64,000 nucleotides of DNA, from positions 1 to 64,000 of the IMG/VR virus record IMGVR_UViG_3300029828_000006; one strand, written 5' to 3'. The stretch is from a virus. Taxonomy: Duplodnaviria; Heunggongvirae; Uroviricota; Caudoviricetes. Of the stretch, positions 2,860 through 61,464 are shown one piece after another. Position 1 is the stretch's first letter. Every line of letters begins with the position of its first letter. The notes beneath the pieces were generated by a model, which worked only from the letters and a program-made list of their open reading frames with translations, was not told the DNA's origin and did no database searches. A program made the position numbers and the translations under genes.

Positions 2860-2931
2860 GCTGCAAAGTGCTGGTGCTTTATGCCTGTGAAGTTTATAAT
2901 TGTGTACACATAACGAGTACACGAGGTGTTT

Positions 2932-3153
2932 ATGCAATCCATTAACTTCCGTACCGCGCGCGGCAACCTTTCTGAAGTGCTCAACAATGTTGAAGCCGGG
3001 GAAGAGGTTGAAATCACCCGCAGAGGCCGTGAGTCAGCAGTAATTGTCAGCAAGGCTACTTTCGAAGCCTACAAAAAAGCGGCGCTGGATGCTGAATTTG
3101 CATCCCTGTTTGACACCCTGGACTCCACCAACAAGGAACTGGTTAACCGATAA
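2932..3153 (+). CDS. phd: Phd antitoxin
   Basis: 73 aa [34 protein letters not shown]... matches recalled P1 Phd; stop overlaps doc start (TAATG). Confidence 0.9.
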
Positions 3154-3533
3154 TGAGGCATATATCACCGGAAGAACTTATTGCGCTTCATGATGCGAAT
3201 ATAAACCGCTACGGCGGCCTGCCGGGAATGTCAGATCCGGGTAGGGCAGAGGCCATTATCGGGAGAGTTCAGGCCAGAGTTGCCTACGAAGAGATCACCG
3301 ACCTTTTCGAAGTCTCCGCCACCTACCTGGTGGCTACAGCGAGAGGGCATATATTCAATGATGCCAATAAGCGTACCGCGCTAAACAGTGCGCTGTTATT
3401 TCTACGCCGTAACGGGGTGCAGGTATTTGATTCACCTGAACTGGCAGACCTTACCGTAGGGGCTGCGACCGGAGAGATATCTGTATCTTCTGTCGCCGAC
3501 ACGTTACGTAGATTGTATGGTTCCGCGGAGTAG
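3153..3533 (+). CDS. doc: Doc toxin (Fic-fold kinase)
   Basis: 126 aa product matches recalled P1 Doc; coupled to phd. Confidence 0.9.
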
Positions 3534-3537
3534 ATTA

Positions 3538-3735
3538 ATGGCACGTAGATACAACAAATTGTCCCGTGAAGCGTTAAAGATGCTTCTTGATGGCGTGAGT
3601 CGCCGCGAGGTAAAGCAATACCTGATTGGTAAGCAAATTGGCGCCAGGACCGCTATTGCTGTGTTATGCCGTCAGGAAATGGTTGTGCTTAAACAGAGAA
3701 TGCTTGGTAGCAGACAAAGTGCTTCCAGTATTTGA
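3538..3735 (+). CDS. small basic protein (65 aa), possible DNA-binding
   Basis: ATG just after doc stop; followed by terminator at 3739-3769. Confidence 0.3.
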   Translation: MARRYNKLSREALKMLLDGVSRREVKQYLIGKQIGARTAIAVLCRQEMVVLKQRMLGSRQSASSI

Positions 3736-3738
3736 AAA

Positions 3739-3769
3739 GAAGCCCGCCATACCAAGCGGGCTTTTTGTT
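3739..3769. terminator. bidirectional rho-independent terminator
   Basis: AAGCCCGC-loop-GCGGGCTT stem with T-run; separates convergent doc cluster and 3768..4544. Confidence 0.6.
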
Positions 3770-4544
3770 ATTTCACCTCTTCTGCCGCTGTATCATTGGA
3801 CTGTTCTTCTTTGGCCCGTTCTGCAATCGCCGCACGGCATTTCGCCCTGGCTATAGCGATTGCTTCAGCTCGCACATCGTCTGGAATCGTTGACGTGATA
3901 TACATATCCAGTTCTTCGGCACGGAATACTGTTTGGTCCAGATATTCGCGTAGCATCCAGGTAAATTCGAAATCACACGCGATAATCTCTGCGCTACCTT
4001 CTGCACCATTTGGGAAATGAATAAATGCCTGTTTAGCCAAACCGATAACACGACATGCGGTTGCCAAAACAGCGACAACCAGGTTTACATTTTCACACGC
4101 TACGGGCTGATTAACGCCGGAGATTACTCCATTTAACTGTCGGTTATATGGAAGGTAGTTTGAGATGCGTTCTACGCGCCATGTGCCAGTCAGGCTGCCA
4201 TTTTTAAAGATAATTGGTGTAACGGATAGCCCAAGCTCGCGTATAAGTCGTTGCGCTATAGCAGGATCATTAAACAGGTCTAATGCTACACATTCGAAAG
4301 ACTGCGCAAGGGCAAACAGTTCTTCCAGAGAGTAGTCTTTGCCCCTGGCGGTGATGTAACGACGAACGCCGCTGTCCGCATCACTCCATATAGCTACGCC
4401 ATGCTCTTCATTCAGTTCTTCATTAAAGCCGAGATACGTCATGATAGTGCGTTCAATCGTGTCAAACGGCAGTGACATGTCGGCGTTAACATCCACCAGC
4501 AGACCATTACGCAAGCGGTATTGAATTGCTTTAGTATTTTCCAC
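3768..4544 (-). CDS. hypothetical protein (258 aa)
   Basis: Last gene of operon downstream of cre; no domain recognised. Confidence 0.5.
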   Translation of the reverse strand: MENTKAIQYRLRNGLLVDVNADMSLPFDTIERTIMTYLGFNEELNEEHGVAIWSDADSGVRRYITARGKDYSLEELFALAQSFECVALDLFNDPAIAQRLIRELGLSVTPIIFKNGSLTGTWRVERISNYLPYNRQLNGVISGVNQPVACENVNLVVAVLATACRVIGLAKQAFIHFPNGAEGSAEIIACDFEFTWMLREYLDQTVFRAEELDMYITSTIPDDVRAEAIAIARAKCRAAIAERAKEEQSNDTAAEEVK

Positions 4545-4550
4545 GTTAAA

Positions 4551-5213
4551 TCACTCCACTACAAACCAGTCACATGCCAGTAAGTCGCCTACAGAAGGAA
4601 CCCACGGAACAACTACACCTTGTGCATTTTTTAAGGCGAAATAAGCACCATACGGAACGAGGTCGCCGGGGAAATATCCCTTAATGGCTTCCATTCGTGC
4701 CGGGTACTGTCCTTCAGGAACCAGCCAGCAGAATTGGTTTTCACCGTTCCACCCGCGTCGAGCAACTTTCTTTCCTTCCTTCAGCCACATCAGCGCGTCA
4801 GAAAAGTCGGCTGCTTCAAGGTCGATTTCTTCTTGCTGGGTGGTGATGCCACCAGCAGAAATAGTTACGCTTCCGGAAATATTAATGTTCACGCCGTTGT
4901 CATCCGTAATGATGACCGTGGTCCCATTTTCGGAGGTGTCGTTAACCCGGCTATAGCATTTTTCAAATGCTTTCTCTGGCACATAGACCGGATAGCCATT
5001 TTCAGCAGTGACGAGATATCCTCCTATTTGCGGTCGGAATCTTTCCAAGAACACACCATCAACACGAAGCGTCATTCCTTTTGGCTCAACGACTTCGATA
5101 CTGCCCAAAATGGGCGCATCAGTTTCGCCGACAATAACAATATCTTTGATTTTCGATGCCCGAATGATGCTGTGGCTTTTGTATTTGGGGAACACCTGAA
5201 AAGTGCTAGCCAT
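4551..5213 (-). CDS. two-domain protein with C-terminal DUF2829 (Tad2-like) domain
   Basis: C-terminal FSDALMWLKEGKKVARRGWNG...VVPWVPSVGDLLACDWFVVE matches recalled DUF2829 signature. Confidence 0.5.
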   Translation of the reverse strand: MASTFQVFPKYKSHSIIRASKIKDIVIVGETDAPILGSIEVVEPKGMTLRVDGVFLERFRPQIGGYLVTAENGYPVYVPEKAFEKCYSRVNDTSENGTTVIITDDNGVNINISGSVTISAGGITTQQEEIDLEAADFSDALMWLKEGKKVARRGWNGENQFCWLVPEGQYPARMEAIKGYFPGDLVPYGAYFALKNAQGVVVPWVPSVGDLLACDWFVVE

Positions 5214-5227
5214 AATCTTTCCTCTAC

Positions 5228-5722
5228 TTAAAACTTTTCGTACTGAAGCGGTGTACGCTTGATTTCAACGCGGTCTTCCGATGTACTACCAAAGCCACCA
5301 GCACCTCGCTCTGTTTCATCGAGTTCATCAACTTCTACCAGCGATACCGGTTCAACACGCTCAAAAATGCCTTGCATGACAGCCATTCCAGGCTTGAGGC
5401 AAATGCCTTCCCCGCCGGGATCAGCAATCAGTTTTGCCATGATTTCACCGCGATAATCGGAGTCGATAATTCCTACGCAGTTAGCCAGGCGAGTATGTTT
5501 TTTGCAGCCCAATCCGGATCGTGGATAGAGTTTCAGACACCAGCCGGGCGGGATCTCCATAGCCAGTCCGGTATACACCCACCAGCTTGAGGAAATTGCA
5601 CCATTGCTATCGACGCATGGTTTTATTTCAACAGCCTCAAAATCCATCGCCGCCGATCCGGAGGTGGCATAAGCTGGAAGTTTTGCTGCCGGATGTAGGC
5701 GTTTCACTTTTACGTAAATCAT
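5228..5722 (-). CDS. dut: dUTPase (trimeric Dut family)
   Basis: Five Dut motifs visible: ATSGSAAMD, YPRSGLG, GIIDSDYRGE, MQGIFE, RGAGGFGSTS. Confidence 0.75.
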   Translation of the reverse strand: MIYVKVKRLHPAAKLPAYATSGSAAMDFEAVEIKPCVDSNGAISSSWWVYTGLAMEIPPGWCLKLYPRSGLGCKKHTRLANCVGIIDSDYRGEIMAKLIADPGGEGICLKPGMAVMQGIFERVEPVSLVEVDELDETERGAGGFGSTSEDRVEIKRTPLQYEKF

Positions 5723-6195
5723 TGTTTTTTAGCTCTCTGCGTGAAGGTGTAAACCCGACGTTTGATATGTGGAACGGTAGGAACAGGAAGACAGGAACTT
5801 TCAATAACCCCTTGCTCCTCCAGCGATCGCACCGCCCGCAAGAACTGCGACGTGTCGCCGCCAAACTGGCGGGCATAGGTGCTGCCGTTAAGAAGTATTT
5901 GAGCTATTACCCGAGCTTTTGTCTGGCTGTCACGATATGCGAATAGCCGCACGGCCTCTTCTGGCGCAATCGCTAACTGATAGCCTTTCCCGGCACGGTG
6001 TCGAATGAATCCATGCGCCAGTAGGTTTTTGAGTTCGTTACGAGTGCGAACAGATCCGTAATCCAGGAAGTGTGGATTGATAACGACTGGCTTAAACCAT
6101 TCCGTAGGTGCTTTAGATAATAGAGCTAACAGCTTCCCGGATAATTCTGGATAGGAAGACGGGTAACAATTCAGAGATGGGTAATAAGTTTTCAC
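5719..6195 (-). CDS. hypothetical protein (158 aa), possible winged-helix
   Basis: Overlaps neighbours by 4 bp (coupled); no firm domain. Confidence 0.45.
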   Translation of the reverse strand: MKTYYPSLNCYPSSYPELSGKLLALLSKAPTEWFKPVVINPHFLDYGSVRTRNELKNLLAHGFIRHRAGKGYQLAIAPEEAVRLFAYRDSQTKARVIAQILLNGSTYARQFGGDTSQFLRAVRSLEEQGVIESSCLPVPTVPHIKRRVYTFTQRAKKQ

Positions 6196-6536
6196 CGACG
6201 CCCCCTTGCAGGATATCGACCTGCATTAGTATCCGGTGCAATAAAGCCGGTAGTGGGGCGAGTGAAAGCGAGATTAATCTTCTCGACCATAGTGCGATAA
6301 TTTTCCTGATAGTGGGCCAGGAGTTTTTCGGCGGCAATGATGGTTACTTTCCGGACGTAGCTTTCTGCTTCCTCCAGATTTCGCCAGTTTTTTTCGAGGG
6401 TAAACACAGGGACGGCCTCAAGCCCGGTCATGATGCCGAACACAACGACAGCATGACTGTTCTTAACACCAGCGGCGAAGGTTACGGTGTAACCATCCAC
6501 CTTGAAGCGTCTTGATTCCGTGATTTGACTCTGCAA
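6192..6536 (-). CDS. hypothetical protein (114 aa)
   Basis: First gene downstream of cre; operator-like motif about 60 nt upstream. Confidence 0.45.
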   Translation of the reverse strand: MQSQITESRRFKVDGYTVTFAAGVKNSHAVVVFGIMTGLEAVPVFTLEKNWRNLEEAESYVRKVTIIAAEKLLAHYQENYRTMVEKINLAFTRPTTGFIAPDTNAGRYPARGRR

Positions 6537-6592
6537 AGCACCCTCCTAAATAGGCGAGGGTACTTTACAGCAAAGACGTTAATCTAAAAAGA

Positions 6593-6608
6593 TGTGTTAG
6601 AAATTTAA
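6593..6608 (+). promoter_or_regulatory. conserved 16-bp motif TGTGTTAGAAATTTAA (candidate operator)
   Basis: Family consensus T(A/G)TGTTAGAAA(A/T)(C/T)TAA; at cre 3' end upstream of 6192..6536. Confidence 0.4.
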
Positions 6609-6609
6609 T

Positions 6610-7638
6610 TTACGAATCCATCAGGCGGCTATTAGCCCCCACAGACACGCCGCCACGGCGAAGATACCGCATAAGTGTTTCCGGTTTCTTCCAGGTTCCT
6701 TCCTGCATGATCTCCACCATAGACACCTGCTTTTCAGCCATATCAATAGCGGCCCCGACGCGTGCACTATGCCCGGTCCACGTCCGGTATCTTCCTTTGT
6801 TTGGCGTAGCATCTCTTTTATTCAGCAACACCCAGGCGTCGCTGAATATTTTCTCCATTGCAGGTGCAGTAAGGGGCGTTATCGTGATCCTGGCCTTATT
6901 GCTACGGTGTATCGGCGGGAACAGCACTGCGTCAGGATGTTCGCGAAGCCCGGAAACATCCAGCCAGTCATTCAGCACAGCGGTAGTGCGACGGGAAAGC
7001 ACCTTATCAAGCCCGGCGGCGGTCGTTATTGTCTTCGTGTGTGAAATATGTAGCGTGACAGTGTCACCTGTTTGGTCCAGATCTCCTACACGAATACGCG
7101 AGATTTCCGACATACGCATCAGCGTATTGTATGCAACAAAGAGAAAAGCCCGGTTGCGCAGGTCCACCAGCCGTTCTGACCTGGACAACAGGACGTCGAG
7201 CAGTTTCAGATCGTCCCACCGCAGCGGTATAGCCTGGCCTGTTCGTTCGCCTTTTTCCGTTGCCGCTTCACGCCGGATGCGCCGCATAGCCAGAGAAACA
7301 CTTTTATCATCCGAAAGTGGCGGAAGGCCACAATGCGAAAGCAGCATGTTAAGCATGGCGTAGTGCTTATCAATGGTGGTCGAAGCCAGATCAGCATCAT
7401 GCAGCTGAAGAAAATACTCGCGGGCCATCTCTGGTGAGATCGGGAACCAGGCGAGCTGGCGAGCGTGACACCATCTCGCCCAGGAGTGAAACACTAACCG
7501 GAGATCGCGCAAAGTATTCGGCGCATAAGCCCCCTGGTCATTCATGAACCGCATAAAGTTTTCTGCGGCCTCCTGGTACTCTTTGCCAATGTTGCGCAGA
7601 AAACCACCGGAGCTGCCAGAGATAATTAATTCACTCAT
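6610..7638 (-). CDS. cre: Cre-like tyrosine site-specific recombinase
   Basis: 342 aa; aligns with Cre along its length (RRIRRE, AYNTLMRMSEISRIRVGD, TGHSARVGAAIDMA, EIMQEGTW...Y); diverged from P1 Cre. Confidence 0.85.
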   Translation of the reverse strand: MSELIISGSSGGFLRNIGKEYQEAAENFMRFMNDQGAYAPNTLRDLRLVFHSWARWCHARQLAWFPISPEMAREYFLQLHDADLASTTIDKHYAMLNMLLSHCGLPPLSDDKSVSLAMRRIRREAATEKGERTGQAIPLRWDDLKLLDVLLSRSERLVDLRNRAFLFVAYNTLMRMSEISRIRVGDLDQTGDTVTLHISHTKTITTAAGLDKVLSRRTTAVLNDWLDVSGLREHPDAVLFPPIHRSNKARITITPLTAPAMEKIFSDAWVLLNKRDATPNKGRYRTWTGHSARVGAAIDMAEKQVSMVEIMQEGTWKKPETLMRYLRRGGVSVGANSRLMDS

Positions 7639-7789
7639 GAAACTATTTCACCTCTATATACAGATGACGCTACGCGAAAAATATAAAAATGACAGGGTAG
7701 CTATAAGTTAATTTTCAAAATACAACCCTTTGATTCGATGCACGTATTTTCAGTGATGTCAACACTGTTCATCTACACATGATTATAGC

Positions 7790-7823
7790 CTAACTTTAAA
7801 TAATGCCAATTATTTAAAGTTAT
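7790..7823. other. lox-like site (13-bp inverted arms, 8-bp spacer)
   Basis: CTAACTTTAAATA-ATGCCAAT-TATTTAAAGTTAT; arms share ATAACTT with loxP; 150 bp upstream of cre start. Confidence 0.6.
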
Positions 7824-8002
7824 AAAATGCCGATTTTTTTTAATCCATCATAGATTGATGATGACCAGTAACACGTTGCCTTCATGGTCTTTAATTTGCG
7901 AAGTGTGGTTTCTACGGTTGGTTTTCTAAAATTGATGACAAAAAATCACAGTTCGATCCTTTACTCACTCTGTTATTCGACATAAATTTGTCATAGTAAT
8001 TT

Positions 8003-8018
8003 TATGTTAGAAAACTAA
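8003..8018 (+). promoter_or_regulatory. conserved motif TATGTTAGAAAACTAA
   Basis: 14 nt upstream of the c1-position ORF start. Confidence 0.45.
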
Positions 8019-8032
8019 ATCGAGTAGGAATA

Positions 8033-9070
8033 ATGAGTAAGAAGTCGATCGAGAAAGAGTACAAACGGTTCCTGCAAACCGCTGAACGGTGGAAAGAGCT
8101 GGTGGTCGCAAACTCTGTTTTCCATGATACCAGTTATGCTGGCGAGGAATTCCGCCATGTTGCATTAACGCATGACCAAAACATATTAGAAGAAGCTGAA
8201 AAATGTCTTGCTGAATGGAAAGCCTTCGTTGACATGTGCCGCGATGCCGACGGCAAAGCGTCGAACATTGTTGAGTCTGTATATTCTCCGATCCCATTCA
8301 TCATTGAGGACACCAATCAAAGCACGCATGTCGTTGTGCAAAGCGCTACAACAACACGTACATTTACACGTGAACAATTGCTAAAAAAATACGACAAAAT
8401 CATAAAGAAAAGCCTTAAAAATAGGGTTTTTTCTCAAATCGTAGGTGATCTTGAAGAAGAACAGCGCTTCTTTGAAGCTGAGCCTGAAGGCGAGATCTAC
8501 CGGGCGCGTAAAGAGGCATATACAGATGTTGTGCTGACAACAAACATCGAAGGCAGCAATGCCCTTTCTCGCTTTAGAGTTGGCGCACATGGTGCATTGG
8601 TTTTCGCAAGACTACCGAAGACAACGATCCCCGTTGTCAATAATGTTGGTGAACGCCGGAGCATTACAATTTATTCTGGCGTCGAATCGGTACCTTGCAG
8701 CCTTCTCGGCGATTTTAACTTATATCGTGTTCGTGACCTGGAAAAACACCAGCCAAGCTATGTTGCGAAGTCGTACATCTTAAGGAACATCGATATTCGC
8801 AATGAAAGCCTTAAGCAGAAATCCGCTAAGATGCTGGAGGATGCCGATCCGGCTATTCGCCATATCATTGAGCGTAAGATACGTACATCACGTGAAGCAA
8901 TGGCAAGGCTGGATAAAATGGATCTGGAATTGTTAGACGTAATGATGGCCTCTGGAGACGACCTGACCGGCATTAAACTGAATGAAGCTCGTAAAAAATA
9001 CGGCAAAGCAATCGAAGAACGTTACGGATACACATTCCCCCAAACGCAGTACGCCGCGAAGCTCTGGTAA
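8033..9070 (+). CDS. hypothetical protein (345 aa) at the c1 position; candidate immunity repressor
   Basis: Convergent with pacB between pacB and lox as c1 is in P1; operator-like motif 14 nt upstream; function positional only. Confidence 0.35.
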   Translation: MSKKSIEKEYKRFLQTAERWKELVVANSVFHDTSYAGEEFRHVALTHDQNILEEAEKCLAEWKAFVDMCRDADGKASNIVESVYSPIPFIIEDTNQSTHVVVQSATTTRTFTREQLLKKYDKIIKKSLKNRVFSQIVGDLEEEQRFFEAEPEGEIYRARKEAYTDVVLTTNIEGSNALSRFRVGAHGALVFARLPKTTIPVVNNVGERRSITIYSGVESVPCSLLGDFNLYRVRDLEKHQPSYVAKSYILRNIDIRNESLKQKSAKMLEDADPAIRHIIERKIRTSREAMARLDKMDLELLDVMMASGDDLTGIKLNEARKKYGKAIEERYGYTFPQTQYAAKLW

Positions 9071-12435: not shown

Positions 12436-12451
12436 TGTATTAGAAAATTAA
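12436..12451 (+). promoter_or_regulatory. motif variant TGTATTAGAAAATTAA
   Basis: In the lpa upstream region; weaker consensus match. Confidence 0.3.
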
Positions 12452-12467
12452 TACTAAATATCTAATG

Positions 12468-16966: not shown

Positions 16967-16982
16967 ATACTTTTCTAACACT
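16967..16982 (-). promoter_or_regulatory. motif variant (rc GTGTTAGAAAAGTATA)
   Basis: In non-coding region; partial match. Confidence 0.25.
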
Positions 16983-17070: not shown

Positions 17071-17122
17071 GGAAAATTCTATGTTAAGTCATCTTCACAA
17101 TCAATACATTCGAATTGTGATT

Positions 17123-17138
17123 TTAGATTTCTAACACA
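17123..17138 (-). promoter_or_regulatory. conserved motif (rc TGTGTTAGAAATCTAA)
   Basis: Immediately beyond the 3' end of 17139..18362. Confidence 0.4.
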
Positions 17139-18362: not shown

Positions 18363-18372
18363 TTTGTTAAAT

Positions 18373-18388
18373 TAGTTTTCTAACATAT
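18373..18388 (-). promoter_or_regulatory. conserved motif (rc TATGTTAGAAAACTAA)
   Basis: 26 nt upstream of the 17139..18362 start codon. Confidence 0.45.
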
Positions 18389-18971: not shown

Positions 18972-19466
18972 TTAATCAAGACAAACATACTCCGTGATAG
19001 CTTTTATGGCTTCAGCGGCACTGCGCGCCTCAAAGCAGTAGTAACCGGCTTCAGTGAGGCGGGTCATCCAGACGAGTTGTTCGGGAGTCAGGCGATTTCT
19101 CCCATGTTTCATCTCAATGCGCATTCCGTGGTATCCCCCACAAGCAAGGTCTATAGAAAGATCGGGATATCCCTTCTTTTGGCCCTCTGCCACCATTTTT
19201 ATTGCCGTCCTTATGCCTCGCAGGCCACCGTTTGGAGTGGCGTGAGTATGCTCATACACATAACGCATATTGCGATACAACCAGTCCAGGACGCGAACCT
19301 GCTCGTAATGCTCATGGTTCCTTTTGATTAGATCTGGGTTTTTCTCCAGTTCTCTAAGAGCTGCGGCATGTGGGGATGTTTCAGAATATTCACTGCGACG
19401 CCTTCTCTTTCGCGCTATTTTTCTAACACACCCATTGATGGTAAATATGCGAAATAATAACAACAA
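18972..19466 (-). CDS. VRR-NUC domain nuclease (true start probably internal)
   Basis: KGYPDLSIDLACGGYHGMRIEMK matches PD-(D/E)xK VRR-NUC core; conserved motif lies inside the first 20 codons. Confidence 0.5.
   Translation of the reverse strand: MLLLFRIFTINGCVRKIARKRRRRSEYSETSPHAAALRELEKNPDLIKRNHEHYEQVRVLDWLYRNMRYVYEHTHATPNGGLRGIRTAIKMVAEGQKKGYPDLSIDLACGGYHGMRIEMKHGRNRLTPEQLVWMTRLTEAGYYCFEARSAAEAIKAITEYVCLD
19415..19430 (-). promoter_or_regulatory. conserved motif (rc TGTGTTAGAAAAATA)
   Basis: Inside the annotated N-terminus of the VRR-NUC ORF, implying a later true start. Confidence 0.35.
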
Positions 19467-28974: not shown

Positions 28975-29316
28975 TACGGCCTCACTAACAGGTTTAACAA
29001 CCTGCTACCCGCTGTCAAACAGGTGGCAGGACGTGACAGGGTTGACAGACTGGCGTTAGTGAAACCAGCAGGCCGAAGCCTCCCCATCACGCCCCACCAT
29101 AATTCGGGCGTAACGCGGTTTACGGACACAAAAATACCGCAATATCGGAAATCTGCGGTTGTCCGCACTAACATTCAGGCTGTCAAACCTGGTCGCAGAA
29201 TTTGCTACGACGGCATGAATATAAGCCTGAAAACATGGAAGATCAACTAAAAATTTCAGCAATGGATGACTTCAGTCGATGATGCAGATCATACATTCCG
29301 ATTTAGAAACAGCAAA
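28975..29316 (-). promoter_or_regulatory. structured leader with complementary 8-10 nt elements (candidate antisense-RNA control region)
   Basis: GCTGTCAAAC at 29011 and 29179 and its complement GTTGACAG at 29041, downstream of operator-like motif. Confidence 0.25.
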
Positions 29317-29332
29317 TTAATTTTCTAACACA
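29317..29332 (-). promoter_or_regulatory. conserved motif (rc TGTGTTAGAAAATTAA)
   Basis: Head of the leader preceding the small-ORF/Rha-like operon. Confidence 0.45.
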
Positions 29333-30518: not shown

Positions 30519-30534
30519 TATGTTAGAAATTTAA
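30519..30534 (+). promoter_or_regulatory. conserved motif TATGTTAGAAATTTAA next to AGTGTAT-N4-ATACACT palindrome
   Basis: About 170 bp upstream of RepL-like gene start. Confidence 0.45.
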
Positions 30535-30547
30535 CTTAACAAGGCAA

Positions 30548-61319: not shown

Positions 61320-61448
61320 GGTTAAGCCCTAAATTCGGGCGCGGCGTGAAGGTTCTTTTGACGGGCTAACAATACCTACTTTGTGATTTAGTCAATAGGT
61401 TTAGTAAAATAAAATATATTAACACGCATGTTGTTATGTGATTTAATT

Positions 61449-61464
61449 TTAGTTTTCTAACACA
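61449..61464 (-). promoter_or_regulatory. conserved motif (rc TGTGTTAGAAAACTAA)
   Basis: Between divergent major-head candidate (start 61319) and 61478 gene. Confidence 0.45.

What the first reader, a model, noticed from the sequence alone, without database searches (positions are those of the whole stretch)
3768..6536. Five-gene operon downstream of cre, where P1 carries its restriction-modification genes
P1 has cra-ref-mat-res-mod after cre. Here the same slot holds five translationally coupled genes: three unknowns, a trimeric dUTPase and a DUF2829-like fusion, ending at a terminator that faces phd-doc. No res/mod is present. The slot is a plausible variable defence or anti-defence locus.
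Basis: partly seen in the sequence, partly recalled or inferred. Interest (0 to 1): 0.6.

Follow-up and report, generated by a model that had tools for sequence, protein, structure and literature searches.

The report
D6-type phage-plasmid operon with Tad2 sponge
The five genes after the Cre-like recombinase are a conserved operon of D6-type phage-plasmids, with its own promoter, that carries a dUTPase, a Tad2-family "sponge" predicted to soak up bacterial immune signals, and three proteins of unknown function; Tad2 in this lineage has already been reported, so this is a useful annotation rather than a surprise.

Summary
On the minus strand, 3768-6536 carries five tightly packed genes downstream of dre, the D6 homologue of cre. 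They end at a bidirectional terminator facing pdcA/doc/phd. No homologue of P1 res or mod occurs anywhere in the window.

The window is 100% identical over this region to E. coli plasmid CP088384.1 and 97% identical to phage D6.

- **g3** is a canonical trimeric dUTPase.
- **g4** is a Tad2-family (DUF2829) domain. It is closest to ModTad2, the His-ADPR/Pycsar sponge (46-47% identity), and its pocket residues are conserved. It is fused to an N-terminal module homologous to the phage L decoration protein Dec.
- **g5** is a homologue of P1 IsaA (48% identity).
- **g1 and g2** belong to tiny orphan families.

The slot does not vary within the E. coli/Salmonella D6 lineage: about 112 of 116 dre-bearing plasmids carry the whole region. 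Across other Enterobacterales the frame g1-g2-(dut)-IsaA is kept. The Tad2 gene is present, absent or fused to dut, and dut can be replaced by a DNA methyltransferase.

g1 has its own conserved promoter, preceded by a repeated box that is probably the D6 C1 operator.

The anti-defence reading is partly supported, for g4 only. A 2025 preprint already reports Tad2 in 93% of D6-like elements. Interest is modest.

The parts
7791..7822 (.). rox recombination site (TAACTTTAAATAATTGGCATTATTTAAAGTTA on the minus strand), the target of Dre
   Evidence: Sequence read. The D6 record annotates the two rox halves at the matching position. The identity to the published rox sequence is from my own memory.
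7782..7809 (-). Sigma-70-like promoter TTGGCA-16-TATAAT upstream of dre; its -35 hexamer lies in the rox spacer
   Evidence: 11 of 12 matches. Consensus match only.
6610..7638 (-). dre, a Cre-like tyrosine recombinase (342 aa)
   Evidence: Pfam Phage_integrase 1.9e-16; 100% protein identity to D6 orf118.
6595..6610 (-). AATTAAATTTCTAACA box, the candidate D6-type C1 operator, overlapping the dre stop codon and 59-74 nt upstream of the g1 start
   Evidence: TTTCTAACA occurs 9 times in the window against 0.62 expected. The 16-mer occurs 8 times against 0.70 expected. Other copies lie upstream of c1, lpa and repL. A box is kept upstream of g1 in divergent loci.
6562..6588 (-). Putative g1 promoter: -35-like TTTAGA (6583-6588), 15-nt spacer, -10 TAAAGT (6562-6567)
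   Evidence: Sequence. The arrangement box / TTGnnn-type -35 / 15-18 nt / TAAAGT or TAAATT is kept in L007, L015, L017, L019, L021 and L023. It was not reported by the strict scan, which requires a 16-18 nt spacer.
6534..6567 (-). 5' leader hairpin (ACCCTC...GAGGGT) that pairs the Shine-Dalgarno AGGAGG, plus the TTG start of g1
   Evidence: RNAalifold on 6 divergent loci gives 12 pairs, 2 of them with compensatory changes. A comparable hairpin is seen in L019.
6192..6536 (-). g1, 114 aa (D6 orf117), unknown function, orphan family
   Evidence: phrog_1968, 4e-48. Only 12 representatives among 1.84 billion proteins. No Pfam, PDB or PADLOC match. dN/dS 0.19-0.30.
5719..6195 (-). g2, 158 aa (D6 orf116), unknown function; possibly a tandem winged-helix DNA-binding protein
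   Evidence: phrog_6669; 9 clusters, all Enterobacteriaceae. Only sub-threshold winged-helix hints: EutK 0.59, PadR 0.13, HTH_CodY 0.23. Always follows g1.
5228..5722 (-). dut, trimeric dUTPase (164 aa)
   Evidence: PF00692 7e-14; NCBIfam NF001862 at 118.5 bits against a cut-off of 103. Motifs AAMD, PRSG, GIIDSDYRGE and RGAGGFGST are visible in the translation.
4833..5213 (-). g4 N-terminal module (aa 1-127): Dec-like OB-fold plus a beta-rich linker
   Evidence: A profile of 22 N-terminal regions hits phage L Dec (6e3c) at E=6.5e-8, profile positions 13-118 against Dec 14-122. Foldseek against 6e3c gives 2.7e-3. The AF2 beta-barrel covers aa 1-90 at pLDDT 82-91 over residues 11-90; the linker is at 45-60.
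4554..4820 (-). g4 C-terminal Tad2 (DUF2829) sponge domain (aa 132-220)
   Evidence: PF11195 1.3e-22. ModTad2 9eib/8v3e at 2e-20, 46-47% identity. W155, N156, W204, S207 and D210 correspond to SPO1 Tad2 W25, N26, W73, S76 and D79; four of them are invariant in 46 homologues, N156 is not listed as invariant.
3768..4544 (-). g5, an IsaA homologue (258 aa), unknown function
3737..3766 (.). Bidirectional intrinsic terminator shared by the operon and the convergent phd-doc-pdcA unit
   Evidence: RNA folds of -16.8 kcal/mol (minus strand) and -17.8 kcal/mol (plus strand), each followed by a U-rich tract.

Best explanation
This is a conserved accessory operon of D6-type phage-plasmids, not a free-floating variable island. 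The frame g1-g2-dut-IsaA is inherited with the recombinase/immunity region. The Tad2 gene (g4) is an insertable counter-defence cassette between dut and isaA.

Inferred mechanism:
- The operon has its own sigma-70 promoter just after dre. A 16-bp box (AATTAnnTTTCTAACA) sits just upstream of its -35 and is most likely the operator of the D6 C1 repressor. The operon would then be shut off, or leaky through read-through from dre, in the plasmid prophage, and switched on early after infection or induction.
- g1 translation is damped further by a TTG start and a leader hairpin that pairs the Shine-Dalgarno sequence. The downstream genes are translationally coupled.
- Dut hydrolyses dUTP and so keeps uracil out of replicating phage DNA.
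- The C-terminal domain of g4 assembles like other Tad2 proteins and sequesters nucleotide-derived immune signals. Its closest relative, ModTad2, suggests His-ADPR from type II Thoeris and possibly Pycsar cCMP/cUMP. The TIR- or cyclase-triggered effector is then never activated.
- The Dec-like N-terminal module is an accessory scaffold of unknown role. It is truncated in phage D6 itself.
- g2 is probably a DNA-binding protein. The roles of g1 and IsaA are unknown.

Shown here: the gene structure, the family and fold assignments, pocket-residue conservation, conservation and variation of the locus, and over-representation and placement of the motif. Inferred: C1 control, timing of expression, ligand specificity and the anti-defence phenotype.
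For: - **Gene structure and coupling:**
- **Purifying selection on all five genes:**
- **Conservation in the E. coli/Salmonella lineage:** 112 of about 116 dre-bearing plasmids carry the region. The 295-bp length variant in H88 lies outside the operon.
- **Frame conserved across Klebsiella, Enterobacter and Raoultella, with variable Tad2/dut positions:**
- **Tad2 membership:** Pfam 80.5 bits against a cut-off of 25; PDB sequence hits at 2e-20; Foldseek 1.3e-8 with TM 0.75-0.88 normalised to the target; pocket residues conserved.
- **Independent report:** an anti-defence screen found Tad2 in 93% of D6-like and 56% of P1-like elements (bioRxiv 10.1101/2025.09.12.675607).
- **Cassette behaviour:** the Tad2 part is 98-99% identical between loci whose N-terminal parts are 83% identical or less, and it occurs with many different N- and C-terminal partners.
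- **Faster divergence of g2, g4 and g5:** 65-90% identity, against 90-94% for dre, dut and doc.
- **Promoter and operator:** the box is over-represented. P1-type operators are absent. Copies lie upstream of c1, lpa and repL, as P1 C1 operators do. The box, promoter and hairpin stay with g1 even when a 289-aa gene with its own terminator separates dre from g1.
- **P1 parallel:** in P1-like phages the g4-g5 pair follows ssb; in P1 itself ssb is transcribed from a C1-controlled promoter.
Against: - There is no experimental or expression data for this lineage.
- Ligand specificity cannot be read from 46-47% identity. Tad2 homologues differ widely in targets.
- The His-ADPR contact residues of ModTad2 were not available as text, so they were not checked.
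- Thoeris and Pycsar are not common in E. coli (my own knowledge), so the selective target is uncertain.
- The proposed -35 is weak in the window itself (TTTAGA with a 15-nt spacer) and was not picked up by the consensus scan.
- The box could bind a factor other than C1.
- Some relatives lack Tad2 altogether (L017, L021), so the conserved frame must do something else that remains unexplained.
- g1, g2 and g5 have no informative matches.
Confidence: 0.6

Rival explanations
1. The whole five-gene operon is a dedicated anti-defence island, essentially the first reader's view. In this reading g1, g2, Dut and IsaA each neutralise a host immune system alongside Tad2.
For: g2, g4 and g5 diverge faster than the flanking dre, dut and doc. 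The cargo that swaps in has a counter-defence flavour, for example an orphan N6/N4 DNA methyltransferase replacing dut in Enterobacter. IsaA and the Tad2 gene are adjacent in both the P1-like and the D6-like lineages. isaA is dispensable for P1 growth on a laboratory host, as expected for an accessory host-range gene.
Against: No homology, fold or family evidence ties g1, g2 or g5 to any known anti-defence protein. The g1-g2-dut-IsaA frame is strongly conserved and under purifying selection (dN/dS 0.06-0.30). It persists where Tad2 is absent, which looks more like a lineage-specific housekeeping or regulatory function. dUTPase has an ordinary nucleotide-hygiene role.
Confidence: 0.2
2. g1 and g2, and perhaps IsaA, are accessory or regulatory factors of the Dre/rox-C1 region, concerned with recombination, plasmid maintenance or immunity control. 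Dut and Tad2 are merely morons inserted into that operon.
For: g1 and g2 follow the recombinase in every locus examined, across four genera. g2 has weak winged-helix signatures and conserved basic motifs. P1 also has small regulatory genes (cra, c8) around cre.
Against: The g1 promoter, box and hairpin travel with g1 rather than dre when another gene is inserted between them (L019). There is no similarity to cra or c8 and no significant DNA-binding family hit. The linkage may simply reflect shared ancestry of the region.
Confidence: 0.15
3. g4 is a virion protein. In this reading a Dec-like capsid decoration trimer carries the Tad2 domain at its distal end, so its role is structural or it is delivered with the particle, rather than acting as a cytoplasmic early sponge.
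For: The N-terminal 120 residues are homologous to phage L Dec across the OB-fold and into the spike region (E=6.5e-8; Foldseek 2.7e-3). Dec's OB-fold binds capsids and its C-terminus forms a trimeric beta-helix (PMC6449081). Another homologue carries a tail-fibre repeat in front of Tad2 (P0013).
Against: The gene sits in a non-structural operon here (behind a candidate C1 operator) and in P1-like phages (after ssb; C1 control of ssb is annotated in P1 itself), not among late morphogenetic genes. Phage D6, a viable phage, has lost the first half of the OB domain. Many homologues have unrelated N-termini or none. An external decoration protein would not enter the cell. The linker is modelled with low confidence.
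Confidence: 0.05
4. The operon, or its g1/g2/IsaA frame, is a prophage-encoded defence or superinfection-exclusion system that protects the lysogen.
Against: PADLOC finds nothing (best E 0.04-0.05). The nuclease-like match is below a convincing Z, and by inspection of alignment A1 against the model no conserved D...(D/E)xK motif sits on the corresponding strands. If the box is a C1 operator, the operon is repressed in the lysogen, the opposite of what a defence system needs. The survey found a complete defence system in only one D6-like element.
Confidence: 0.05

Closest known systems
ModTad2 / MoTad2 (Myroides odoratus prophage Tad2; PDB 8V3E, 9EIB), Tad2 family, Pfam PF11195 (DUF2829)
   Same: The C-terminal 89 residues of g4 align end to end with one single-residue indel at 46-47% identity, including the long beta2-beta3 insertion typical of ModTad2. 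The fold match is clear (Foldseek 1.3e-8). The Trp/Asn/Trp/Ser/Asp pocket residues defined in SPO1 Tad2 are conserved.
   Different: ModTad2 is a stand-alone 89-aa protein. g4 has a 130-residue N-terminal Dec-like module. Ligand binding, tetramer formation and Thoeris or Pycsar inhibition are untested for g4.
P1-like phage pair 'DUF2829 protein - IsaA' after ssb (Salmonella phage SJ46 gp048/IsaA; vB_EcoM-Ro157c2YLVW gp12/gp13)
   Same: The two genes have the same order, orientation and 6-nt spacing. g4 is 72-73% identical to its counterpart and g5 48-49%. The Tad2 part is almost identical.
   Different: There the pair follows ssb, between the lysis genes and hxr/ddrB. Here it is the distal end of the dre operon. 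P1 itself has lost the Tad2 gene.
Phage L decoration protein Dec (PDB 6E3C)
   Same: The N-terminal module of g4 is homologous across the OB-fold, the following helix and part of the beta-helix spike (profile E=6.5e-8; structure).
   Different: Dec is a 134-aa late structural protein that binds P22/L capsids as a trimer. g4 is encoded in a non-structural operon and replaces the end of the Dec spike with a Tad2 domain. Capsid binding is untested.
P1 region downstream of cre (c8-ref-mat, then the EcoPI res/mod)
   Same: The position relative to the recombinase gene and lox/rox is the same. It holds accessory, non-essential cargo, partly under C1 operators (Oref, Omat).
   Different: No gene is shared. 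There is no R-M system here. The far flank differs because the lpa-pac-c1-lox-cre block is inverted relative to phd-doc.
Trimeric dUTPases of phages and bacteria (PF00692; NCBIfam NF001862/TIGR00576)
   Same: g3 scores above the curated cut-offs and has all five motifs.
   Different: g3 has a short C-terminal extension. In some relatives the enzyme is naturally fused to the Tad2 domain (P0053, 241 aa; L023, 304 aa).

Membership tests
Tad2 (Thoeris anti-defence 2, DUF2829, PF11195) | Sequence match to the family model above the curated threshold | tested here: met
   PF11195 at 80.5 bits against a gathering score of 25, aa 136-219. phmmer to 9eib/8v3e gives 2e-20.
Tad2 (Thoeris anti-defence 2, DUF2829, PF11195) | Tad2 fold (alpha1 plus an antiparallel sheet with extended loops) | tested here: met
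   AF2 model pLDDT is mostly 80-94 in the domain, with one block at about 60. Foldseek to ModTad2, SPO1 Tad2, HgmTad2 and SptTad2 gives E 1e-8 to 1e-5, with target-normalised TM 0.62-0.88.
Tad2 (Thoeris anti-defence 2, DUF2829, PF11195) | Ligand-pocket residues of SPO1 Tad2 (W25, N26, W73, S76, D79) | tested here: met
   They map to W155, N156, W204, S207 and D210 of g4. W155, W204, S207 and D210 are invariant in 46 homologues. T78 corresponds to G209 and H71 to V202, so both differ.
Tad2 (Thoeris anti-defence 2, DUF2829, PF11195) | Homotetramer with pockets at protomer interfaces | not testable with these tools
   Only a monomer model could be made.
Tad2 (Thoeris anti-defence 2, DUF2829, PF11195) | Binds and sequesters an immune signal and restores phage growth on a signalling defence system | not testable with these tools
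   Needs biochemistry and plaque assays.
ModTad2 sub-clade (His-ADPR / type II Thoeris, cUMP/cCMP) | Closest solved relative, sharing the beta2-beta3 insertion | tested here: met
   The best PDB hit by both sequence and structure is ModTad2, with a single-residue indel over 88-89 residues.
ModTad2 sub-clade (His-ADPR / type II Thoeris, cUMP/cCMP) | His-ADPR and cUMP contact residues; placement in the Tad2 tree | not tested
   The residue lists are only in figures of the papers read. No phylogeny was built.
Trimeric dUTPase | Family models above curated cut-offs, with the five conserved motifs | tested here: met
   PF00692 at 52.1 bits against 22; NF001862 at 118.5 against 103; TIGR00576 at 116.2 against 102.55. 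The motifs were read in the translation.
Phage L Dec decoration protein family | Homologous OB-fold domain | tested here: met
   Profile-to-sequence E=6.5e-8 over Dec residues 14-122. Single sequence E=0.0017. Foldseek 2.7e-3, probability 1.00.
Phage L Dec decoration protein family | C-terminal trimeric beta-helix spike | tested here: inconclusive
   The alignment runs into the spike region. However, the corresponding g4 segment 93-131 is modelled at pLDDT 45-60 as a monomer.
Phage L Dec decoration protein family | Binds mature capsids; expressed as a late structural protein | not testable with these tools
   The genomic context argues against it: a non-structural operon.
P1 IsaA family (phrog_2326) | Full-length homology to P1 IsaA | tested here: met
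   phrog_2326 1.3e-135. tblastn to P1 isaA gives 48% identity over 86% of the query, E 4e-66.
PD-(D/E)xK nuclease superfamily (considered for g5) | Restriction-endonuclease-like alpha/beta core | tested here: inconclusive
PD-(D/E)xK nuclease superfamily (considered for g5) | Conserved catalytic D...(D/E)xK on the core strands | tested here: not met
   The invariant residues of alignment A1, laid on the model's strands at 40-45, 50-55 and 62-66, include no such motif. This was done by inspection.
Type III restriction-modification (P1 EcoPI res/mod) | Homologues of Res and Mod | tested here: not met
   tblastn of P1 Res and of both Mod halves, and tblastx of the mod region, find nothing in the 64-kb window.
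Known anti-phage defence systems (PADLOC-DB 2.0) | Any component model matched | tested here: not met
   The best E-values are 0.04-0.05, for two unrelated models.
C1-controlled operon (P1-type immunity regulon) | Operator of the resident C1 repressor at the promoter | tested here: inconclusive
   The P1 consensus is absent. A different asymmetric 16-mer is over-represented 8-9 fold or more and sits upstream of c1, lpa, repL and g1. Binding by C1 is not shown.

The most novel reading that the evidence does not exclude
The conserved frame g1-g2-IsaA could be an undescribed counter-defence or host-takeover module specific to P1/D6-type phage-plasmids. In addition, the Tad2 sponge may be deliberately tethered to trimerising scaffolds. 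Three are seen: a Dec-like OB/beta-helix here, dUTPase in P0053 and L023, and a tail-fibre repeat in P0013. Trimers joined to Tad2 tetramers would build higher-order, high-avidity sponge assemblies, or co-localise the sponge with IsaA. The most conserved stretch of IsaA (aa 109-152) is exactly the part AF2 cannot place, as expected for a partner-binding segment.
Probability: 0.15. Interest if true: 0.6.

Novelty: new member of a known kind. Interest (0 to 1): 0.3.

Why it matters
D6-like and P1-like phage-plasmids are common in clinical E. coli, Shigella and Salmonella. Knowing that they carry a regulated operon with a ModTad2-like sponge suggests how these elements establish themselves in hosts armed with TIR- or cyclic-nucleotide-based immunity.

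It also gives a natural enterobacterial Tad2 to test against type II Thoeris and Pycsar.

The locus offers a clean natural experiment. The same frame occurs with Tad2 present, absent, truncated or fused to dUTPase. That variation can be used to ask what the N-terminal Dec-like module and the neighbouring IsaA contribute.

It also corrects the P1 annotation of isaA and supplies a candidate operator for the D6 immunity system.

None of this overturns current understanding.

Tried and rejected
- **Family and sequence searches:** Pfam, NCBIfam and PADLOC scans of g1, g2 and g5 gave nothing significant. Searches of PDB sequences with single sequences and with profiles for g1, g2 and g5 gave only E>0.1 noise.
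- **g1 exhaustive search:** 12 representatives only, so there is no leverage for remote homology.
- **P1 operator:** a search for the P1 C1 operator consensus gave 0 hits at up to 3 mismatches.
- **Late-promoter idea for the TTTCTAACA box:** I considered that it might be a P1-style late-promoter '-22' element. I rejected this because no -10 hexamer follows at the fixed 4-nt spacing in the nine copies.
- **Variable hotspot idea:** I considered that the slot is a hotspot within the D6 lineage. I rejected this on 112 of 116 plasmids carrying the whole region. The one length variant inspected lies between doc and pdcA.
- **AcrIIA7 reading:** an anti-CRISPR reading of DUF2829 is not favoured. The Tad2 papers argue that the family are signal sponges, and E. 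coli lacks type II CRISPR (my own knowledge).
- **D6 genome paper:** Gilcrease and Casjens 2018 is not in the searchable library, so its own view of these ORFs and of the C1 operators could not be checked.

Full report
**What the window is.** The region is 97% identical to Escherichia phage D6 (NC_050154) over 94% of a 4.5-kb query. All other phage records share only phd-doc. Positions 2900-7900 are 100% identical to E. coli plasmid CP088384.1, a 91.9-kb plasmid from a blood isolate. The 'cre' of the finding is dre, the D6 recombinase, at 6610-7638 on the minus strand. Its rox site lies at 7791-7822, and the C1 repressor gene (8033-9070) is transcribed divergently on the plus strand.

**Checking the observation.** Five minus-strand ORFs fill 3768-6536.
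- The g1/g2 and g2/dut junctions are 4-nt overlaps. The dut-g4 gap is 14 nt and the g4-g5 gap is 6 nt, and most starts have a recognisable Shine-Dalgarno sequence (weak before dut).
- There is no terminator-like site inside the operon. A GC-rich hairpin at 3737-3766 works on both strands (-16.8 and -17.8 kcal/mol) and separates g5 from the convergent pdcA-like ORF, doc and phd.
- Against divergent homologous loci, all five genes show pN far below pS, with dN/dS 0.06-0.37. They are therefore real genes.
- P1 Res and Mod have no homologue anywhere in the 64-kb window.
It is lox-cra-cre-c8-ref-mat, then res and mod on the opposite strand.
- The 'same slot' statement holds only relative to the recombinase. 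In P1, phd-doc-pdcA is followed by pdcB-lpa-pacA-pacB-c1-lox-cre. Here phd-doc-pdcA abuts the end of the operon, so the block is inverted.

**The proteins.**
- **g3** is a standard trimeric dUTPase. It passes PF00692 and scores 118.5 bits on the NCBIfam dut equivalog against a cut-off of 103. All five motifs are present.
- **g4, C-terminal part.** Residues 132-220 are a Tad2 (PF11195/DUF2829) domain at 80.5 bits against a cut-off of 25. The best solved relatives are ModTad2 8V3E and 9EIB, at E=2e-20 and 46-47% identity with one single-residue indel. HgmTad2/AcrIIA7, SPO1 Tad2 and SptTad2 follow.
- **g4, model.** The AF2 model has mean pLDDT 79 and is good in both domains. It matches these structures with Foldseek E 1e-8 to 1e-5.
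- **g4, pocket.** The residues that hold gcADPR in SPO1 Tad2 are W25, N26, W73, S76 and D79 (bioRxiv 10.1101/2023.05.01.538930). They correspond to W155, N156, W204, S207 and D210, and four of the five are invariant in 46 homologues.
- **g4, likely ligands.** ModTad2 does not inhibit type I Thoeris. It sequesters His-ADPR of type II Thoeris (bioRxiv 10.1101/2024.01.03.573942) and also cUMP/cCMP of Pycsar in a second pocket (bioRxiv 10.1101/2025.08.24.671296). The same paper shows that Tad2 homologues vary widely in targets, so specificity here is only an inference.
- **g4, N-terminal part.** Residues 1-127 were unknown to Pfam. A profile of 22 such N-termini hits the phage L decoration protein Dec (6E3C) at E=6.5e-8 over Dec residues 14-122. 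The structural match supports this (2.7e-3). Dec consists of an OB-fold (10-77), a helix and a trimeric beta-helix spike (PMC6449081). The corresponding g4 linker (93-131) is modelled poorly as a monomer.
- **g1** (114 aa) has 12 relatives at 50% clustering among 1.84 billion proteins.
- **g2** (158 aa) has 9 clusters, all enterobacterial. It shows only sub-threshold winged-helix hints.
- PADLOC finds nothing in any of the five.

**Is the slot variable?** Not within the E. coli/Salmonella/Shigella D6 lineage.
- dre is found in 116 PLSDB plasmids, and the whole phd-to-dre stretch is at least 80% covered in 112. One 295-bp length variant lies between doc and pdcA, outside the operon.
- A second sublineage keeps the same five genes. 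Protein identities are dre 94%, dut 91%, doc 90%, g1 82%, c1 80%, g2 73%, g5 70-72% and g4 65-90%. So g2, g4 and g5 diverge faster than their neighbours.
- Further out, the frame persists but the middle changes:

| Locus | Host | Difference from the window |
|---|---|---|
| L015 | Enterobacter | An N6/N4 DNA methyltransferase replaces dut; an HNH-like gene lies before IsaA |
| L017, L021 | Raoultella (L017); host not identified (L021) | No Tad2 gene |
| L023 | K. michiganensis | A single 304-aa Dut-Tad2 fusion |
| P0053 | E. coli | A 241-aa Dut-Tad2 fusion |
| L019 | K. variicola | A 289-aa gene lies between the recombinase and g1 |
| L011, L012, L018 | some E. coli-type elements | A sixth gene of 366-368 aa (phrog_5902) is added |

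- The downstream flank also differs: doc-phd, hicBA or an ars operon. Type I R-M genes, when present, lie beyond phd (L007/L008).
- The Tad2 domain behaves as a cassette. It is 98-99% identical between elements whose N-terminal modules are 83% identical or less. It also occurs with many other N- or C-terminal partners, including crAss001_48 and a tail-fibre repeat.

**Relation to P1.** In P1-like phages SJ46 and vB_EcoM-Ro157c2YLVW, the same pair (Dec-like-Tad2 gene, then isaA) follows ssb. In P1 itself the annotated 320-aa IsaA consists of a 57-residue leader nearly identical (3 differences) to the start of SJ46 gp048, joined directly to IsaA proper. The P1 reference has therefore cleanly lost the Tad2 gene. 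isaA is non-essential in P1 (PMC10695390).

**Regulation.** The 73-nt dre-g1 spacer contains AATTAAATTTCTAACA at 6595-6610.
- TTTCTAACA occurs 9 times in the window against 0.62 expected. The 16-mer occurs 8 times against 0.70 expected. The P1 C1 operator consensus is absent.
- Other copies lie just upstream of c1, 79-94 nt upstream of lpa and about 175 nt upstream of repL. This mirrors the P1 operators Oc1 and Olpa and the C1-controlled repL operon (my own knowledge).
- In six divergent loci, the box or a near variant (TTTCTAATA in L015, TATCTAACA in L023) is followed by a TTGnnn-type -35, a 15-18 nt spacer, TAAAGT or TAAATT, a hairpin that pairs the Shine-Dalgarno sequence, and a TTG start. 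The hairpin has 12 pairs, two of them with compensatory changes.
- In L019 this whole module stays with g1 although another gene with its own terminator separates it from the recombinase.
- I infer a separate, probably C1-repressed, early promoter with damped translation of g1. In the window the -35 is weak, and no binding data exist.

**Comparison with what is known, and verdict.** A 2025 survey of phage-plasmids already reports 'Tad2 AcrIIA7 (anti-Thoeris)' in 93% of D6-like and 56% of P1-like elements. It found a complete defence system in only one D6-like element (bioRxiv 10.1101/2025.09.12.675607). The anti-defence content of this locus is therefore known at the level of automated annotation.

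This analysis adds five things:
- the operon anatomy and its conserved regulatory module;
- the Dec-like nature of the N-terminal module;
- the closer affinity to the ModTad2 (type II Thoeris/Pycsar) branch;
- the cassette-like presence, absence and fusion pattern on a conserved g1-g2-dut-IsaA frame;
- the P1 deletion.

One gene is a credible counter-defence sponge, but the locus is a conserved operon rather than a variable island, and it is not the counterpart of the P1 R-M site. Three proteins remain unexplained. Interest is modest at 0.3. The more novel possibility is that the frame proteins and the trimer-scaffold fusions have a counter-defence function of their own. That is not excluded, but it has little direct support.

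Noticed in passing
L004:4570-5532 (P1 isaA) compared with L005:4806-6440 (SJ46 gp048 plus isaA): The annotated 320-aa IsaA of P1 is a fusion. Its first 57 residues are nearly identical (3 differences) to the start of SJ46 gp048, and residues 59 onward are IsaA proper. The P1 reference genome has therefore cleanly lost the Dec-like-Tad2 gene that other P1-like phages carry between ssb and isaA.
   Followed up: yes
window 6595-6610, 8005-8020, 12438-12453, 17121-17136, 18370-18385, 29315-29330, 30521-30536, 61447-61462 (also 16972-16980 and 19420-19428): An asymmetric motif AATTAnnTTTCTAACA is over-represented (8 copies against 0.7 expected). It sits upstream of c1, lpa, repL and g1. It is probably the operator set of the D6-type C1 repressor. 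P1-type operators are absent from the window.
   Followed up: partly
window 6534-6567 and the equivalent positions in L007, L015, L017, L019, L021, L023: A conserved leader hairpin pairs the Shine-Dalgarno sequence of g1, with some compensatory changes. g1 appears to use a TTG start in every lineage examined (read directly in six intergenic sequences). In L023 the hairpin is followed by a run of eight T and looks like a terminator or attenuator.
   Followed up: partly
P0053 (E. coli, 241 aa) and L023:5434-6348 (Klebsiella michiganensis, 304 aa): These are natural single-chain dUTPase-Tad2 fusions in D6-like elements, apparently arising independently. Other Tad2 homologues carry a tail-fibre repeat (P0013) or a C-terminal crAss001_48 domain (P0061, P0068, P0071).
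   Followed up: partly
L001:5552-5992 (phage D6 orf114) compared with window 4551-5213: The D6 reference phage has a 146-aa version of g4 that lacks the first half of the OB domain (a deletion of roughly 220 bp). Most plasmids carry the 216-225-aa form. The N-terminal module is therefore dispensable for phage viability.
   Followed up: partly
L007:9314-12489 and L008:9313-12489: A complete type I R-M system (hsdM, hsdS, hsdR) is inserted next to phd in some D6-like elements. In this lineage the variable defence cargo sits on the far side of phd-doc, not downstream of dre.
   Followed up: no
window 7782-7822: The rox site overlaps a near-consensus promoter-like site: TTGGCA in the rox spacer, a 16-nt gap, then TATAAT, pointing toward dre. 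Dre binding could therefore affect dre transcription.
   Followed up: no
L011:8457-9557, L012:8457-9557, L018:5788-6894: An extra sixth gene (366-368 aa, phrog_5902, with weak similarity to a terminase large-subunit PHROG) overlaps the end of the IsaA-like gene in one sublineage. It is absent from the window.
   Followed up: partly
window 3517-3735 (+): A pdcA-like ORF lies immediately after doc and ends 2 nt before the shared terminator. In plasmid NZ_MN101851 an additional 276-nt ORF is inserted between doc and pdcA.
   Followed up: partly
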